IMG/VR virus record: IMGVR_UViG_3300005937_000016
Location: 2,425 to 66,424 of that record
Length of the DNA: 64,000 nucleotides
Reading direction: 5' to 3' (one strand)
Origin: a virus
Taxonomy: Duplodnaviria; Caudoviricetes
Shown here: positions 11,560 to 14,702 of the stretch, in pieces
Layout of the letters: each line of letters starts with the position of its first letter
Position numbering within the stretch: position 1 is the first letter of the stretch
Made by a program: the position numbers and the translations under genes
The notes under the pieces: model-generated
Seen by the model: the letters and a program-made list of their open reading frames with translations, nothing else
Told to the model about the DNA's origin: nothing
Databases searched by the model: none

Positions 11560-12234
11560 TCACCGTGCAGGCGCAATGGTTGCTCCAGATATCTCGGCAT
11601 GGCTGGCATCCTGAATCACAAACCGACCATAGCCCATTTTGCGCGAGGTCCCCACGCCTACCCGTTGCCCACAGTAGCCCACAAAATCAATAATATGCTG
11701 CGCCTCCGGAATATCGTTCACGAAAAAACCGATCGTGCCGTGCGCCGTGAACTTGGCAATAAACGGGTTTTTCCGTAAGGCCCGCTGATTACTTAAGGGC
11801 TGTCCGGTGCCTGATTTGGGCATCACCAGGCGCTCATACACGCCGTCTTCTTTCTCTTTGCCCGTGTCCCAGTCCGACACATGCAGGATATGGCGGAGGT
11901 TGGCGGGATCACAGGGACGCTGCGAGGCAGACAGGGTTTTCGCACTTTCAATCAAACAGCCGTACATTTGATGGGATGGAATGATGATGGCCCCCTCCTG
12001 GTCCCGGTACCACGGGCGCGACGCCCGTTCTTCCAGGGCCTCGTACGCCTCCTGACTTATGCCCTGGCGCCGGAGATATTCCTTGAGGGCCTGCTCCCGC
12101 TTTGCCTCGGTGCGGGTGCGGTTCATCCCGCTGAGTTTCTGAATATTGATCAGCTCCTCCTTCGCGGGAAAATAGGGATCGGCAATATACCCTTTGTCAA
12201 AAAACAGGGTGAACTGTATGGTCTGGGACTCCAT
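11560..12234 (-). CDS. Stand-alone RAMP superfamily (Cas7/Csm3-like) protein
   Basis: WYRDQEGAIIIPSHQMYGCLIESA resembles the RAMP YIPxSxxKG.L motif; C-terminal G-rich loop GVGTSRKMGYGRF; strong RBS AAGGAG. Confidence 0.7.
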   Translation of the reverse strand: MESQTIQFTLFFDKGYIADPYFPAKEELINIQKLSGMNRTRTEAKREQALKEYLRRQGISQEAYEALEERASRPWYRDQEGAIIIPSHQMYGCLIESAKTLSASQRPCDPANLRHILHVSDWDTGKEKEDGVYERLVMPKSGTGQPLSNQRALRKNPFIAKFTAHGTIGFFVNDIPEAQHIIDFVGYCGQRVGVGTSRKMGYGRFVIQDASHAEISGATIAPAR

Positions 12235-12255
12235 GATGTCTCCTTGCGTTGTCGT

Positions 12256-12705
12256 GTTGCCGTCGCCGTTGCCGACGCCGCTGCCGTTGCCGTAGCCGGA
12301 GCCGTTGTCGTGGCCGTTGCCGTAGCCGTTGCCGAGGCCGTCGCCGTGGTCGTCATCGTCGTCGTTGCCGCCGTCGTTGCCGATGCCGCTGTCGATGCCG
12401 GAGCCGGGGCCGTCGCCGTTGCCGTCGCCGGAGCCGTTGCCGAGGCCGTCGTCGTTGCCGCAGCCGTTGCCGCAGCCGTCGTCGTTGCCGCTGCCGGTGC
12501 CGTAGCCGTCGCCGGAGCCGATGCCGACGCCGCTGCCGTTGCCGCTGCCGTTGCCGTCGCCGTCGCCGTCGCCGGAGCCGATGCCGGTGCCGTCGTCGTT
12601 GCCGCTGCCGTTGCCGTCGCCGTCGCCGGAGCCGATGCCGACGCCGTCGTCGTTGCCGCAGCCGTTGCCGTCGCCGTCGCCGTCGCCGGAGCCGGTGCCG
12701 TCGCC
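12256..12705 (-). repeat. Array of 75 hexamer units GGC-NN-C (candidate non-coding guide array)
   Basis: Manual parse: 450 nt in unbroken 6-nt register; constant slot is GGC x65, GAC x9, GAT x1; the last base of every unit is C; in-frame TAA directly 5' and no start codon in the Gly-X frame. Confidence 0.9.
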
Positions 12706-12795
12706 GCGTTATTGCCAGAACTCTCGCGCCAATGCACCCCCCCGGCGTCTCGAGACGGCGACGCGCCCTCCGCTACGCGGCTTTCGGCCAGCGCT

Positions 12796-13413
12796 CTAGG
12801 ATACATGTGCCCAGGCACGTCCTTTGACAATATTACTAATGAGCTTGTCGCTTACTCCGTGTTGCTTTGCTAAACGATACATACTTATGCCAGCAGCATG
12901 CTGTGTGCGGATTGTGCGTATATGCCCCTCCGTCAATTTGGCGTTCGGCACCTGTTCGCCATGTGGTGTATGCAGTCGTTTCTTCATCGCGCAATCCTGC
13001 ATATTCTCCAGATGCGTTCCTAAAAAGAAGTGTCTCGGGTTACAACAAGGCGGGTTGTCGCATTGATGACACACCTCCTTTGCATCAGGTATTGGGCCAT
13101 AGGTATAGATGTAAGCTAGCCGATGGCTCAGATACATTTTTCCTTTGATACCTAAGCGACCATAACCCTGTCTATGCAAGCTCCCTTGCCAAAGCCAGCA
13201 GGCATCATCTCCACCATTCTTGTCTACTCGCTTCCAGAAGCACGCAATTAAATCGCGCGGTTTGTGCTTTGGAAAGCCATGTATTTTACGATGAAGCCGA
13301 TAGCACGTTATTGAACAAAAGCGGCTGTTGCCTTCCTTAAGCTTGCTAGGCTTCGCGGGAAATCGTGCTTTACATTGTTCACATACCGTTATCACCATTG
13401 ATTTTTTAGGCAT
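12796..13413 (-). CDS. HNH endonuclease with N-terminal Zn finger and C-terminal HTH
   Basis: CEQC...FCSITC; FWKRVDK...CWLWQG...GYG...HRLAY...VCHQCDNPPCCNPRHFFLGTHLENMQD; TAATG coupling to the upstream gene. Confidence 0.9.
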   Translation of the reverse strand: MPKKSMVITVCEQCKARFPAKPSKLKEGNSRFCSITCYRLHRKIHGFPKHKPRDLIACFWKRVDKNGGDDACWLWQGSLHRQGYGRLGIKGKMYLSHRLAYIYTYGPIPDAKEVCHQCDNPPCCNPRHFFLGTHLENMQDCAMKKRLHTPHGEQVPNAKLTEGHIRTIRTQHAAGISMYRLAKQHGVSDKLISNIVKGRAWAHVS

Positions 13414-14702
13414 TATGATGCCTTTGTAGCTTTCGGGAATCTTTCCCGACAGAAAGACCCATCGGCCATTCTCCTCGAGCAATAGAAGGTGCCCGGCGCT
13501 TTCGCGCTCGGCTTCAGCGGCCCGTGATAGGGACAGACGGGCGTCTCGGGTGCTGGTGCTGGGGGCGTGGCCGGTGCCGGCATCGGGCTCGGACTGGGCG
13601 GGACCGCCGCGGGGGCCCGCCGCGCCTGCGGCTTCAGGCCCTGCTGCTTACACCACGCTACAAGGTTGCTCACGGCCTCACGAAACTCTTTGCCCGTGGT
13701 CTTGCGCACGGTCAGAAGGAATTGATACCCGGCGGCGTCCTCCACACTTACCGTGGCGCTATACGGTGCCTCGTACATCACCACGCCGGCATGGGTCAGG
13801 GTGAGATGCGCCGGGACCGGCGGCGGCACGTCCCGCGCGGGCGGTGCCGCCTCGGGCTCCGGGCTATACTCGGGCTCCGGGATATACTCGTCATCGCGGG
13901 GTGTCGTCATAGCTACCTCGTGTTTCGCGCCAGGATCGCCCAGGAGCCCGGCGGGGACCGGGGGGTCCTCTAGATCATCGGGGGGGGCCTGTGGGCCCTG
14001 TGGGGCATCCTGAGCGGTTGTCGGGGGGATCTGGGCCAAGTACTCCTCGGCCGTTGCGGGCCCCAGCGGCAAGGGCAGGGTGTCGCGCGTCCCCTGCCCC
14101 AGGCGGGCGCAGACTTCGACGTAGAGCGTTTTGGCAATCAGGTGATAACACCATTTCGATTTGCCGTGTTGACTCTGCGGGCAGGAACAGCCCCCATTGC
14201 AGGAGTAGCGGCGCCCCGCGCTGCCCTCCACCTCGAAGAAGCCATCGGGGCTCCGCGTCACTTTGCCGGCCCGCACCAGCGCGACGGCCTGGGTCAGGCG
14301 CGTATCGCTGCCACGGTCGGCATGCACATAGGGCGGCCGCTGAAACTCGGCGGCCACAATCGCCAGTTCGCGCTCAAACGCCGGTTCCATCAGGGACCCT
14401 CCTTGTTGTTGGCACGTGGGTGTGTGGGTGCTGGGGAACTTGGCAGGGTGTTCCAGCACCGTCCGTTCGTCGTCCGTCAACTCTTCGCCTACCGCCTGCC
14501 GCAGTGCCAGCGCCGTGGTGGGGCCGCAGTGCGTGGCCCAACGCCGCGCTAACGCCTGTAAGCCCCCGCGGATCTCGTCCGGCCAGTCGGCCTCGACCAG
14601 CCGCGCCTCGACCCAGGGCGTTGCTTTCCACGCGGCGGGATACGTCTCGTCCCGGAGCATGCTGCGCAAGGCGAGGCGCAGGGCGGGATCCGTGCGGGTC
14701 AT
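13413..14702 (-). CDS. SWIM zinc-finger domain protein (alternative start at 14390)
   Basis: CSCP...WCYH SWIM motif; Pro-rich linker; C-terminal CPYHG...YCS Zn ribbon; strong RBS at both candidate starts. Confidence 0.7.
   Translation of the reverse strand: MTRTDPALRLALRSMLRDETYPAAWKATPWVEARLVEADWPDEIRGGLQALARRWATHCGPTTALALRQAVGEELTDDERTVLEHPAKFPSTHTPTCQQQGGSLMEPAFERELAIVAAEFQRPPYVHADRGSDTRLTQAVALVRAGKVTRSPDGFFEVEGSAGRRYSCNGGCSCPQSQHGKSKWCYHLIAKTLYVEVCARLGQGTRDTLPLPLGPATAEEYLAQIPPTTAQDAPQGPQAPPDDLEDPPVPAGLLGDPGAKHEVAMTTPRDDEYIPEPEYSPEPEAAPPARDVPPPVPAHLTLTHAGVVMYEAPYSATVSVEDAAGYQFLLTVRKTTGKEFREAVSNLVAWCKQQGLKPQARRAPAAVPPSPSPMPAPATPPAPAPETPVCPYHGPLKPSAKAPGTFYCSRRMADGSFCRERFPKATKAS

What the first reader, a model, noticed from the sequence alone, without database searches (positions are those of the whole stretch)
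12256..12705. 75-unit GGC-NN-C array next to a lone RAMP gene: candidate RNA-guided system with a gapped guide code
Seen: on the minus strand, 450 nt keep a perfect 6-nt register. A constant GGC (GAC in 9 units, GAT in 1) alternates with a variable dinucleotide plus an invariant C. The variable pairs read 5'-3': GA AC TC GA GA GA AA TG AA GA GT AT TC GA GA AA AG AA GA AC AT TC GA GA GA AA AG AA AG GT AT TC GA TA AC AG AA GA TG AA TG AA GA CT AA TC GA AA GA CC TC AT AG AT AA GG AA GA GA CA GA CT AA TA AA CA AA TC TA AA AG GT AA GA AA. The Gly-X frame has a TAA immediately 5' (12709-12711) and no ATG/GTG/TTG, and the array ends about 20 nt before the RAMP start, just ahead of its RBS. Known: Cas7-type RAMP subunits polymerise along guide RNA with a 6-nt step. 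I also recall recent reports of virus-encoded RAMPs paired with GGY/NN-patterned guide RNAs (VIPR-type, 5-nt period); I cannot verify this here, and a 6-nt period would be a different variant. Inference: each RAMP subunit grips a constant motif and displays NN, so the array spells a non-contiguous target. Counter-evidence: the variable slot is rich in Asp/Asn/Ser codons (Ser as both TCC and AGC) and is in frame with the RAMP ATG, as a decayed Gly-rich protein would be.
Basis: partly seen in the sequence, partly recalled or inferred. Interest (0 to 1): 0.95.

Follow-up and report, generated by a model that had tools for sequence, protein, structure and literature searches.

The report
Six-base VIPR-like phage guide array
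A complete soil-phage genome carries a small Cas7-like protein distantly related to the newly described VIPR proteins; just ahead of the gene lies a 450-base non-coding array of 75 six-base units (four fixed bases, two free), a repeat length I found in no VIPR paper and the same as the six-base step of CRISPR Cas7 backbones.

Summary

The protein models as a Cas7/Csm3-like fold. It is a full-length remote homologue of the SUSP1 Vipr family (hhalign 98.3%, E 2e-14).

In 20 of 23 non-redundant homologous loci with both flanks, arrays of the same grammar lie within 150 nt of the RAMP gene. They sit almost only on its sense strand (3493 units against 37).

The arrays are not coding:
- 25 of 73 have no possible start codon.
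- Their frame relative to the RAMP ATG varies.
- Differences between related arrays fall on NN, not on the "wobble" C.
- One relative uses 5-nt units.
- Another clade flanks the arrays with true CRISPR repeats.

Ordinary phage (Gly-X)n protein genes also use GGC-NNC, but they are a separable class with start codons and low NN diversity.

Best reading: the guide-RNA array of a VIPR-type system with a 6-nt period, a new variant of a kind described in 2026. Expression, binding, targets and the skip rule are untested, and my limited target searches found nothing.

This scan had noted many 5-nt VIPR arrays on other DNA, but no 6-nt one.

The parts
12256..12705 (-). Array of 75 hexamers. In the family register C-G-R-C-N-N it spans 12257-12706. 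R is G in 65 units and A in 10. NN is variable, with 13 different dinucleotides.
   Evidence: Unit counts. Only array in the window and none in shuffles. Same grammar next to homologous RAMP genes. Predicted RNA is less structured than all 100 shuffles, z +5.2.
12235..12255 (-). Linker between array and gene. It holds two off-register degenerate units (CGACAA, CGCAAG), which overlap the Shine-Dalgarno AAGGAG (12245-12240), 5 nt before the ATG.
   Evidence: Read directly. In homologues the gap from array end to ATG has a median of 23 nt and also holds the RBS.
11560..12234 (-). Gene for a 224-aa stand-alone RAMP, Cas7/Csm3-like fold, remote homologue of Vipr. The glycine-rich loop reads GVGTSRKMGYGRF.
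   Evidence: AF2 pLDDT 92.9. Foldseek top hits are Csm3 and Cas7-11, probability 1.0. VIA-align gives Cmr4-like Z 13.0 and Csm3 Z 12.5. hhalign against the SUSP1 Vipr family gives 98.3%, E 2.2e-14, 183 columns. The family has 214 clusters at E<=0.001 among 1.84 billion representatives.
12706..12795 (-). GC-rich leader of 90 nt between the HNH stop and the array. It holds the palindrome CGTCTCGAGACG (12757-12746), a G7 run (12743-12737) and the TAA (12711-12709) that closes the Gly-X frame.
   Evidence: Its fold is no more stable than shuffles (z 0.9) and no consensus promoter was found. A G7-TG motif recurs before the array of the close relative L014. Its role is not established.
12796..13482 (-). 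HNH endonuclease gene directly upstream on the same strand. It is context only and not shown to belong to the system.
   Evidence: Pfam HNH_3 at 1.7e-11 and PHROG endonuclease families. The neighbours of homologous RAMP genes differ from locus to locus.

Best explanation
The array is the non-coding guide-RNA array of a phage-encoded VIPR-type system whose repeat unit is six nucleotides (C-G-R-C plus NN), not five. I take it to be transcribed with the RAMP gene as its 5' leader.

By homology with Vipr and with Cas7 backbones, RAMP protomers would polymerise along the RNA, one per hexamer. Each would sequester the constant C-G-R-C and present the two free bases. The string of NN dinucleotides would then specify a gapped nucleic-acid target, most likely DNA of a competing phage or mobile element, which the filament silences.

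Shown here:
- the array and its grammar;
- the Vipr homology and Cas7-like fold;
- the strict, strand-specific co-occurrence of such arrays with this RAMP family;
- variability concentrated on NN, with the constant motif tracking the RAMP clade;
- the non-coding nature of the arrays.

Inferred only: transcription, one protomer per unit, target pairing, the target period, and silencing.
For: (1) Homology. Profile-profile comparison of the window family (A3) with the SUSP1 Vipr family (A2) gives 98.3%, E 2.2e-14, over the full length. SUSP1 Vipr is also the top hit against PDB sequences. The model is Cas7/Csm3-like.

(2) Co-occurrence. Of 23 non-redundant loci with both flanks, 20 have an array of at least 8 units within 150 nt of the gene. 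The median gap is 23 nt before the ATG and 17 nt after the stop. There are 3493 units on the RAMP strand against 37 on the other.

(3) Variability. Among alignable arrays, differences fall on NN (150 and 175) and the R/Y slot (67), not on C1, G2 or C4 (38, 8, 10). Arrays of RAMPs 81% identical to the window's do not align with the window array at all.

(4) The third base is a purine in one monophyletic RAMP clade and a pyrimidine elsewhere.

(5) Not coding:
- 25 of 73 arrays, including the window's, have no in-frame start, and only 16% have an SD-linked start.
- The frame relative to the RAMP ATG splits 12/9/21.
- In-register TAA units occur.
- The window RAMP gene has C at only 31% of third codon positions, against 99% in the array.
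- Relative L070 has 5-nt CGYNN units.

(6) RNA-type flanks in relatives. Rfam CRISPR-DR9 repeats ending in ATTGAAAC abut the arrays. An 11-of-12 sigma-70 promoter lies in front of repeat, array and RAMP in L022. Hairpin-bounded units occur in L061 and L066.

(7) Array RNA is predicted to be unstructured. The window gives z +5.2, and 11 of 12 other arrays give z above 0.

(8) The host is a complete phage genome with direct terminal repeats and no cas genes seen, as for most VIPRs (paper).
Against: - No expression or binding data exist; no RNA run is listed.
- No target was found. Five 10-unit seeds at a 1-nt skip had no exact match in IMG/VR. One 9-unit seed gave 10 hits whose flanks match at chance level. 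A scan of 281 kb of held sequence at target periods 2-6 gave no clear excess over shuffled guides.
- The published VIPR features are absent from the window: a 5-nt unit, 9-16 repeats per RNA and a structured 3' tail.
- No consensus promoter lies upstream of the window array.
- NN is biased towards GA and AA (52%), like the Asp/Asn slots of real phage Gly-X proteins.
- In the two closest relatives (L013, L014) the Gly-X frame does have a GTG start and is in frame with the RAMP.
- The link between constant motif and RAMP clade rests on a single evolutionary event.
Confidence: 0.6

Rival explanations
1. The array RNA binds the RAMP but does not guide it to a target. It could be a cis-acting leader through which the RAMP titrates or autoregulates its own mRNA. 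Or it could be a scaffold or decoy: a Cas7-like filament on a 6-nt-periodic pseudo-crRNA that sequesters or poisons host type I/III CRISPR components, an RNA-plus-protein anti-CRISPR.
For: The array sits in the RAMP's own 5' leader and abuts its RBS. The 6-nt period equals the Cas7-crRNA step, and the closest solved folds are type III Cas7 subunits. In one clade the arrays lie between genuine CRISPR repeats. The same repeat occurs alone in another complete phage that lacks the RAMP. No target was found.
Against: Most clades have no CRISPR repeat. The constant motif follows the phage's own RAMP clade, which suggests a self-contained pair. Turnover on NN with high diversity (3.0-3.15 bits per 20 units) is what a specificity code predicts, and a mere scaffold gives no reason for it. 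Arrays also lie downstream of the gene or as separate hairpin-bounded units, which does not fit a leader-only role. The nearest characterised relatives are guide-dependent DNA binders.
Confidence: 0.2
2. The array is, or recently was, protein-coding. It would be a Gly-X low-complexity N-terminal extension of the RAMP, or a decayed copy of the widespread phage (Gly-X)n repeat-protein genes that use GGC-NNC hexamers.
For: The Gly-X frame is in frame with the RAMP ATG, and X is rich in Asp, Asn and Ser. In L013 and L014 the frame has a GTG start, with AAGGAGG in L014, and gene callers predict fused products of 310-334 aa. At least 119 IMG/VR contigs hold (CGGCNN) runs of 8 or more inside real ORFs without any RAMP. 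Earlier notes of this scan describe such genes.
Against: The window has TAA and then no start codon. All three frames are stop-free and start-free by construction, so open frames carry no weight. Across loci the frame relative to the RAMP is 12/9/21 and 34% of arrays have no start, against 2% in the coding class. NN entropy is 2.5-3.0 bits in the window against a maximum of 2.2 in the coding class. Most relatives use GCC, which would read Ala-X, so no amino-acid repeat is conserved, only the nucleotide grammar. Substitutions avoid the wobble C. L070 has a 5-nt period. CRISPR repeats place TGA just before the Gly frame.
Confidence: 0.07
3. The array is a DNA-level element, such as a protein-binding site array or a recombination or replication-slippage hotspot, with no RNA role. 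It would sit near the RAMP gene for other reasons.
For: Arrays expand and contract quickly and show internal duplications. No transcript data exist.
Against: Double-stranded DNA sites would not need the strict co-orientation with the RAMP gene seen here (3493 units against 37). The partner protein has an RNA-binding RAMP fold. Promoter, CRISPR-repeat and hairpin flanks in relatives point to transcripts.
Confidence: 0.03

Closest known systems
VIPR systems: Vipr RAMP plus vrRNA. The type II exemplars are Escherichia phage SUSP1 and a P. fulva prophage. bioRxiv 10.64898/2026.04.26.720920 and 10.64898/2026.04.26.720927.
   Same: Phage-encoded. A single small RAMP of about 20-25 kDa, homologous over its full length. 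A tandem-repeat tract next to the gene on the same strand, with fixed bases alternating with two free bases. No cas operon.
   Different: The unit is 6 nt (C-G-R-C-N-N), not 5 nt (Y-N-N-G-G), with four fixed bases instead of three. There are 75 contiguous units instead of 9-16 per RNA. No conserved structured 3' tail and no conserved vap partner were found. The G-loop residues that hold the two guanines in SUSP1 Vipr (D177, W178) align to T/A and S here. A conserved insertion of about 22 residues (IQKxSGxNR) is absent from SUSP1 Vipr.
VIPR variants with alternative repeats (NNNGG, YNNNG, NNNNG) and 'staggered' arrays (same preprint, Methods and fig. S18), and non-canonical 5-mers such as GAC/NN (bioRxiv 10.64898/2026.10.21.760802).
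   Same: They depart from GGY while keeping a fixed/variable grammar, and they form long contiguous arrays. The relative L070 has CGYNN pentamers in 7 blocks of 9-14 units, each offset by 1 nt. That would read as YNN-CG, that is YNNNG.
   Different: All published variants keep a 5-nt period. The survey of periodic intergenic arrays reports periods of 5, 7, 8, 10, 18 and 60-79 nt but not 6.
Type III CRISPR backbone subunits Csm3/Cmr4 (Cas7 family) on crRNA.
   Same: These are the best structural matches (Z 11-13). By established knowledge, one Cas7 subunit binds per 6 nt of crRNA, the same period as this array. In relatives L021-L023 and L045 the arrays are bounded by Rfam CRISPR-DR9 repeats ending in ATTGAAAC.
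   Different: The window has no Cas10, Cas5, Cas6, Cas1 or Cas2 and no repeat-spacer array. The 'spacer' is itself a hexamer repeat with only 2 free bases in 6. By sequence profile the protein is closer to Vipr than to any Cas7.
Phage (Gly-X)n repeat-protein genes encoded by GGC-NNC hexamers
   Same: The same GGC-NNC nucleotide hexamer with C at both third positions, a preference for GA, AA, TA and TC in the free slot, and fast change.
   Different: In that class 51 of 52 arrays have an in-frame start, 54% with an SD, and the ORF either stops right after the array or continues into a conserved C-terminal domain. NN entropy has a median of 1.5 bits. Only 1 of 80 loci gave a RAMP hit, a weak one about 9 kb from the array. 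The window array has none of these features.
RNA anti-CRISPRs: solitary CRISPR repeat units carried by phages. This is from my own knowledge (Camara-Wilpert et al., Nature 2023) and was not checked here.
   Same: Phage-borne CRISPR repeats occur next to arrays in L021-L023 and alone in L226.
   Different: The window has no CRISPR repeat. Here the conserved partner is the phage's own RAMP.

Membership tests
VIPR system | Effector is a Vipr-family RAMP (sequence homology). | tested here: met
   hhalign of A3 against the SUSP1 Vipr family A2 gives 98.3%, E 2.2e-14, 183 aligned columns, 1-211 against 1-198. A single-sequence template gives only 31%. SUSP1 Vipr is the top PDB sequence hit at E 0.09.
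VIPR system | Single-RRM RAMP fold with glycine-rich loop and thumb. | tested here: met
   AF2 pLDDT 92.9. Cas7/Csm3 matches at Foldseek probability 1.0 and VIA Z up to 13. The G-loop GVGTSRKMGYGRF is conserved. The thumb was not examined residue by residue.
VIPR system | Viral or proviral, minimal locus without cas genes or a CRISPR array. | tested here: met
   Complete 66.4-kb phage genome with terminal repeats and terminase, portal and tape-measure genes. Rfam finds no family in the window.
VIPR system | Tandem-repeat tract with fixed bases alternating with a hypervariable NN, next to the gene. | tested here: met
VIPR system | Pentanucleotide repeat unit (YNNGG or NNNGG, YNNNG, NNNNG), 9-16 units per vrRNA. 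| tested here: not met
   The unit is 6 nt in the window and in nearly all relatives. There are 75 contiguous units. The papers report only 5-nt units.
VIPR system | Conserved, structured 3' tail after the repeat tract. | tested here: inconclusive
   In the window the array runs into the RBS. No tail is shared among relatives, only a frequent last unit ...CAA-CG or CGAC. L061 and L066 have 3' hairpins. No covariance model was built.
VIPR system | Accessory vap gene with a DNA-interacting function. | tested here: inconclusive
   An HNH gene lies directly upstream in the window. The neighbours of homologues vary: HTH_17 plus integrase, Bro-N, DnaB-like helicase, amidase, methylase.
VIPR system | The repeat RNA is expressed and co-purifies with the protein. 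| not testable with these tools
   No RNA run is listed for this DNA.
VIPR system | NN string matches natural targets with a 1-nt skip. | tested here: inconclusive
   Six seeds in IMG/VR gave no match beyond chance. A local scan of 281 kb and one MAG were also negative. Only a tiny part of the guide space was searched, and by exact matches.
Type III CRISPR-Cas effector (Csm/Cmr) Cas7 subunit | Encoded in a cas operon with Cas10 and Cas5 and a repeat-spacer array. | tested here: not met
   Neighbours are HNH, a SWIM-like ORF and a UvrD-like helicase. Rfam finds no CRISPR repeat in the window.
Type III CRISPR-Cas effector (Csm/Cmr) Cas7 subunit | Cas7-family fold. | tested here: met
   6s6b_I at Z 13.0, 9g9a_D at Z 12.5, 6ae2_B at Z 11.6.
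Phage (Gly-X)n repeat-protein genes | In-frame start codon (often with SD) before the repeat, and a stop or conserved domain after it. | tested here: not met
   TAA and then no ATG, GTG or TTG before the array. In the coding class 51 of 52 arrays have a start.
Phage (Gly-X)n repeat-protein genes | X restricted mainly to Tyr, Ser, Asp and Asn (low NN diversity). | tested here: not met
   Window NN entropy is 2.5-3.0 bits per 20 units. The coding class has a median of 1.52 and a maximum of 2.20. GA and AA still make up 52% of window units.

The most novel reading that the evidence does not exclude
This RAMP family is a VIPR lineage that reads its guide in 6-nt steps, the step of CRISPR Cas7 backbones. 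In some members the guide arrays are already framed by true CRISPR repeats with the ATTGAAAC handle. On this reading the family would be an intermediate, or a point of exchange, between the gapped VIPR code and class 1 CRISPR crRNPs, with its own still unknown decoding rule.
Probability: 0.35. Interest if true: 0.9.

Novelty: new variant of a known kind. Interest (0 to 1): 0.8.

Why it matters
VIPR was described in 2026 as a pentanucleotide code read by an ancestral RAMP and was proposed as the precursor of CRISPR. A sister family that keeps the two-free-base logic but uses a 6-nt unit would show that the repeat length of the code is evolvable. Within this family one member, L070, uses 5 nt.

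The family offers natural material for asking how a RAMP sets its step. Candidates are a conserved 22-residue insertion and an altered G-loop.

Through the members whose arrays are bounded by real CRISPR repeats, the proposed VIPR-to-CRISPR transition becomes directly testable.

Practically, a second decoding geometry could widen the design space of small RNA-guided DNA binders.

The finding also sets out how to tell such arrays from the common phage Gly-X repeat genes, which use the same GGC-NNC hexamer.

Tried and rejected
- **Target search.** IMG/VR was scanned for exact matches to gapped seeds at a 1-nt skip. Seeds came from L002, L066/L061, L022 and three parts of the window array. Five gave no match. 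The 18-base window seed gave 10 matches whose 24 flanking units match at 0-5, which is chance.
- **Local target scan.** All arrays were scanned against 281 kb of held sequence at target periods 2-6, with shuffled guides as control. Only artefacts from unmasked arrays appeared, plus a 2-fold excess at period 3 that is not significant. The L012 guide against its own MAG gave one hit at 3 mismatches, equal to the control.
- **RNA evidence.** No RNA holder is listed.
- **Search limits.** tblastn of the protein against 50,697 phage records found no match.
- **Family libraries.** Pfam and PHROGs gave no significant family for the RAMP.
- **Promoters and terminators.** The consensus scan found nothing useful around the window array. 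The leader fold is not better than shuffles.
- **Specificity residues.** Columns P139, P146 and Y202 track the purine or pyrimidine motif. The purine type is one clade, so this is a single event and not independent evidence.
- **Conserved accessory gene.** None was found.
- **Rejected: C at every third base proves non-coding.** Real Gly-X genes found by the reciprocal scan also show it, although that scan selected for it.
- **Rejected: open reading frames through arrays as evidence for coding.** All three frames are stop-free by construction.
Full report
**1. The observation**

On the minus strand, window 12256-12705 is 450 nt in a perfect 6-nt register. There are 75 units: GGC in 65, GAC in 9, GAT in 1. 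The sixth base is C in all 75 and the third is C in 74.

TAA (12711-12709) closes the Gly-X frame 3 nt before the array. There is no ATG, GTG or TTG in that frame, and it runs in frame into the ATG at 12234. After the last unit come 21 nt that carry AAGGAG (12245-12240).

It is the only such array on either strand of the window, and 20 shuffles produced none. NN self-similarity peaks at offsets of 10 and 19 units (p about 0.001). CGAC units stand at positions 10, 19, 38, 43, 53, 56, 58-60 and 67. The array therefore looks partly built from duplicated blocks of 9-10 units.

**2. Context**

The window is 64 kb of a complete 66,424-bp IMG/VR phage genome with direct terminal repeats. The phage has terminase, portal, head-morphogenesis and tape-measure genes. 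The DNA is held by rhizosphere metagenome runs.

The gene order on the minus strand is: UvrD-like helicase, an ORF without family, HNH endonuclease, a 90-nt leader, the array, the RAMP gene. Rfam finds no family in the window.

**3. The protein**

The 224-aa product has no significant Pfam or PHROG family.

- With 24 homologues it models at pLDDT 92.9.
- Foldseek's best solved matches are Csm3, type VII Cas7 and Cas7-11, at probability 1.0 and TM about 0.5.
- VIA-align against 48,161 chains puts type III Cas7 subunits on top: 6s6b_I at Z 13.0 (rmsd 3.3, 155 aligned), 9g9a_D at Z 12.5, 6ae2_B at Z 11.6.

By sequence profile the best PDB chain is the SUSP1 Vipr protein (36pp_D, E 0.09), aligned over the G-loop.

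I located the SUSP1 VIPR locus through its GGYNN tracts and collected 529 relatives of its Vipr. I then compared the two family profiles. hhalign gives 98.3%, E 2.2e-14, 183 columns, covering 1-211 against 1-198. The window protein is thus a remote, full-length homologue of Vipr.

Relative to SUSP1 Vipr it has an insertion of about 22 residues. The insertion carries the family's most conserved motif, IQKxSGxNR. The positions aligned to D177 and W178, which hold the two guanines of GGY, are T/A and S here.

The family is modest in size: 214 clusters at E<=0.001 among 1.84 billion representatives. tblastn of the protein found no match among 50,697 deposited phage records.

**4. Do arrays travel with the protein?**

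I fetched 80 loci that encode relatives and scanned them for C-G-N-C-N-N runs.

- Units on the RAMP sense strand number 3493; on the other strand, 37.
- Of 23 non-redundant loci with at least 300 nt on both flanks, 20 have an array of at least 8 units within 150 nt of the gene, and 5 have one on both sides.
- The median gap is 23 nt from array end to ATG and 17 nt from stop to array start.
- Positions 1, 2 and 4 are C, G, C in 95-99% of units, partly by the way arrays were detected. All 16 dinucleotides occur at NN.
- The third base is a purine (G, less often A) in one monophyletic clade that includes the window. It is a pyrimidine (C, less often T) in the rest.
- More distant members use AGYC-NN (L092) or CGCT-NN (L096).

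So the nucleotide grammar is conserved, not an amino-acid repeat. The same frame would read Gly-X in one clade and Ala-X in the other.

**5. Coding or not?**

Inside such arrays all three frames are free of stops and of canonical starts by construction. An ORF through an array therefore means nothing. Several informative tests remain.

(a) Start codons. 25 of 73 RAMP-adjacent arrays, the window's included, have no in-frame start before the array at all. Only 12 have one with a Shine-Dalgarno.

(b) Frame. The frame of the "C-wobble" reading relative to the RAMP ATG is 12 in frame, 9 at +1 and 21 at +2.

(c) Stops. Units such as GCC-TAA occur in register.

(d) Substitutions. Between alignable arrays, differences fall on NN (150 and 175) and the R/Y slot (67), not on C1, G2 or C4 (38, 8, 10). 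In the best orthologous pair (L003 against L005, 61 units) the two third positions carry 4 differences and the four other positions 29. That is the reverse of what purifying selection on a protein would give. This count leans on arrays defined by the C-G-N-C pattern.

(e) Codon usage. RAMP genes use C at only 40% of third positions, and the window's gene at 31%.

(f) A 5-nt relative. L070 carries CGYNN pentamers in seven blocks of 9-14 units, each offset by one base. A 5-nt period cannot be a codon repeat. In a tree rooted on the SUSP1 family, L070 is nested inside the hexamer family (supports 0.69 and 0.94).

(g) Flanks in relatives are RNA-like.
- In L021, L022, L023 and L045 the arrays are bounded by 37-nt repeats that match Rfam CRISPR-DR9 at 39.9-49 bits, several above the gathering score of 45. 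The repeats end in ATTGAAAC directly against the first unit. The repeat puts TGA just ahead of the Gly frame.
- L022 has an 11-of-12 sigma-70 promoter 19 nt before the first repeat.
- In L061 and L066 each array is a unit between a 5' hairpin and a 3' GC-rich hairpin.
- Other loci have AT-rich or CAACATGAAAACCGT punctuation.

(h) Structure. The window array RNA is predicted to fold less well than all 100 shuffles (z +5.2). Of 12 other arrays, 11 have z above 0. This fits a single-stranded scaffold.

**6. The rival that deserves respect**

Among the 80 loci returned, only one had a RAMP hit, a weak one about 9 kb from the array. These are real genes.
- 51 of 52 have an in-frame start, 54% with an SD.
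- Either a stop follows right after the repeat, or a conserved C-terminal domain (...YDWHHRLTGSC.MGR...) does.
- NN is almost only TA, TC, GA and AA.

Earlier notes of this scan describe the same widespread phage (Gly-X)n genes. GGC-NNC hexamers are therefore not in themselves evidence of an RNA element.

The two classes do separate. NN entropy per 20 units has a median of 1.52 bits (maximum 2.20) in the coding class. It is 2.99 and 3.15 bits in the purine-type and pyrimidine-type RAMP-adjacent arrays, and 2.5-3.0 bits along the window array.

Caveats remain. GA and AA make up 52% of window units. In the closest relatives, L013 and L014, the Gly-X frame has a GTG start (with AAGGAGG in L014) and is in frame with the RAMP, so gene callers predict fusions. 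I put translation at about 7%.

**7. Mechanism**

VIPR is documented as follows.
- One Vipr protomer binds per 5-nt repeat.
- Two neighbouring protomers lock GGY and expose NN.
- NN pairs with DNA while every third target base is skipped.
- The result is transcriptional silencing of rival phages and satellites.

By homology I propose the same logic here with a 6-nt step: C-G-R-C held, NN shown. Nothing in that sentence beyond the sequence grammar is shown.

Target searches were negative but very shallow.
- Five 10-unit seeds at a 1-nt skip had no exact match in IMG/VR.
- A 9-unit window seed had 10 matches with chance-level flanks.
- Scans of held sequence and of one MAG gave nothing.

NN is A/T-rich in a 62% G+C phage and is depleted in GC, CG, CC and GG. 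That would limit self-pairing with the constant motif and slippage of the register. It also shows that NN is not simply drifting.

**8. Comparison with what is known**

The VIPR preprints and the later survey of periodic intergenic arrays report only 5-nt units for VIPR. They report other periods of 7, 8, 10, 18 and 60-79 nt, none of 6. They state that VIPR loci are not associated with CRISPR repeats.

This scan's earlier notes list many 5-nt VIPR arrays on other DNA but no 6-nt RAMP-linked one.

I file the window locus as a new variant of a known kind. It has a Vipr homologue and the fixed/variable repeat logic. It fails the defining pentanucleotide feature, and it lacks the 3' tail and a conserved vap.

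I cannot exclude that members of this family sit unannotated among the 667 published loci.

**9. Verdict**

- The array-RAMP partnership is strongly supported; my estimate is about 0.85.
- The guide reading has a confidence of 0.6.
- Interest is 0.8. The period equals the Cas7 step, the family switches between 5 and 6 nt, and one clade frames its arrays with genuine CRISPR repeats.

Noticed in passing
L022:2258-3622; also L021:793-1264, L023, L045: In RAMP homologues 55-57% identical to the window's, the hexamer arrays are bounded by 37-nt repeats. These match Rfam CRISPR-DR9 at up to 49 bits (gathering score 45) and end in ATTGAAAC directly against the first unit. The order in L022 is promoter (TTGACA-18-TACAAT), repeat, array, RAMP gene, repeat, arrays, repeat. 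It reads as a CRISPR-like array whose 'spacers' are hexamer arrays of 10-38 units.
   Followed up: partly
L070:454-860: One family member (37% identical, gene cut by the contig end) has 5-nt CGYNN units in seven blocks of 9-14 units, each offset by exactly one base by a CGCCAA- or CGCCGA-type hexamer. This resembles the published 'staggered' VIPR arrays. It is nested within the hexamer family in the tree.
   Followed up: partly
L010:2195-3582: The RAMP reading frame stops after residue 19 (MQRTAHITLYFGERYIADP*) and resumes at FPEREELINI about 0.8 kb later. The insert encodes a LAGLIDADG-type ORF (LAGLMDADG). This is probably an intron or homing-endonuclease insertion at the most conserved motif. 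Rfam found no intron model.
   Followed up: partly
L107-L186 (IMG/VR), e.g. L108:2043-2312, L113:4730-5500, L120:2150-2758: At least 119 viral contigs carry (CGGC-NN) runs of 8 or more without an adjacent RAMP. These are real ORFs. Some are tandem micro-genes of the form M-x(8-17)-(Gly-Tyr/Ser/Asp/Asn)n-stop. Others are proteins of 190-280 aa with a conserved C-terminal ...YDWHHRLTGSC.MGR..F...AYGG domain. They are the same class as the (Gly-X)n phage genes noted earlier in this scan.
   Followed up: partly
L226:7665-7698: A single copy of the same CRISPR-type repeat (AGCGCCCGTCCTTCGGGGCGGGCGAGGATTGAAAC) stands alone in another complete 41-kb phage genome. That genome has no RAMP of this family and no hexamer array. 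It may be a solitary repeat unit.
   Followed up: no
L003:2204-3687; L005:2342-3687: In this clade a small HTH_17 (excisionase-like) gene sits between two arrays upstream of the RAMP, and an integrase follows downstream. The proximal array begins at an ATG that overlaps the HTH stop (ATGA), and its frame ends in a TGA that overlaps the RAMP ATG. The arrays are thus embedded in a tightly packed operon.
   Followed up: partly
L029:934-2034: Six sub-arrays of 9-54 units are separated by short punctuation (CAA, GAAAACCGT, CATGAAAACCGT, CACCAACATGAAACCCGC). The lengths of these gaps are all multiples of 3.
   Followed up: no
window 12746-12757 and 12737-12743: The leader before the array holds a perfect 12-nt palindrome (CGTCTCGAGACG) and a G7 run followed by TG. 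A G7-TG motif also precedes the array in the close relative L014.
   Followed up: no
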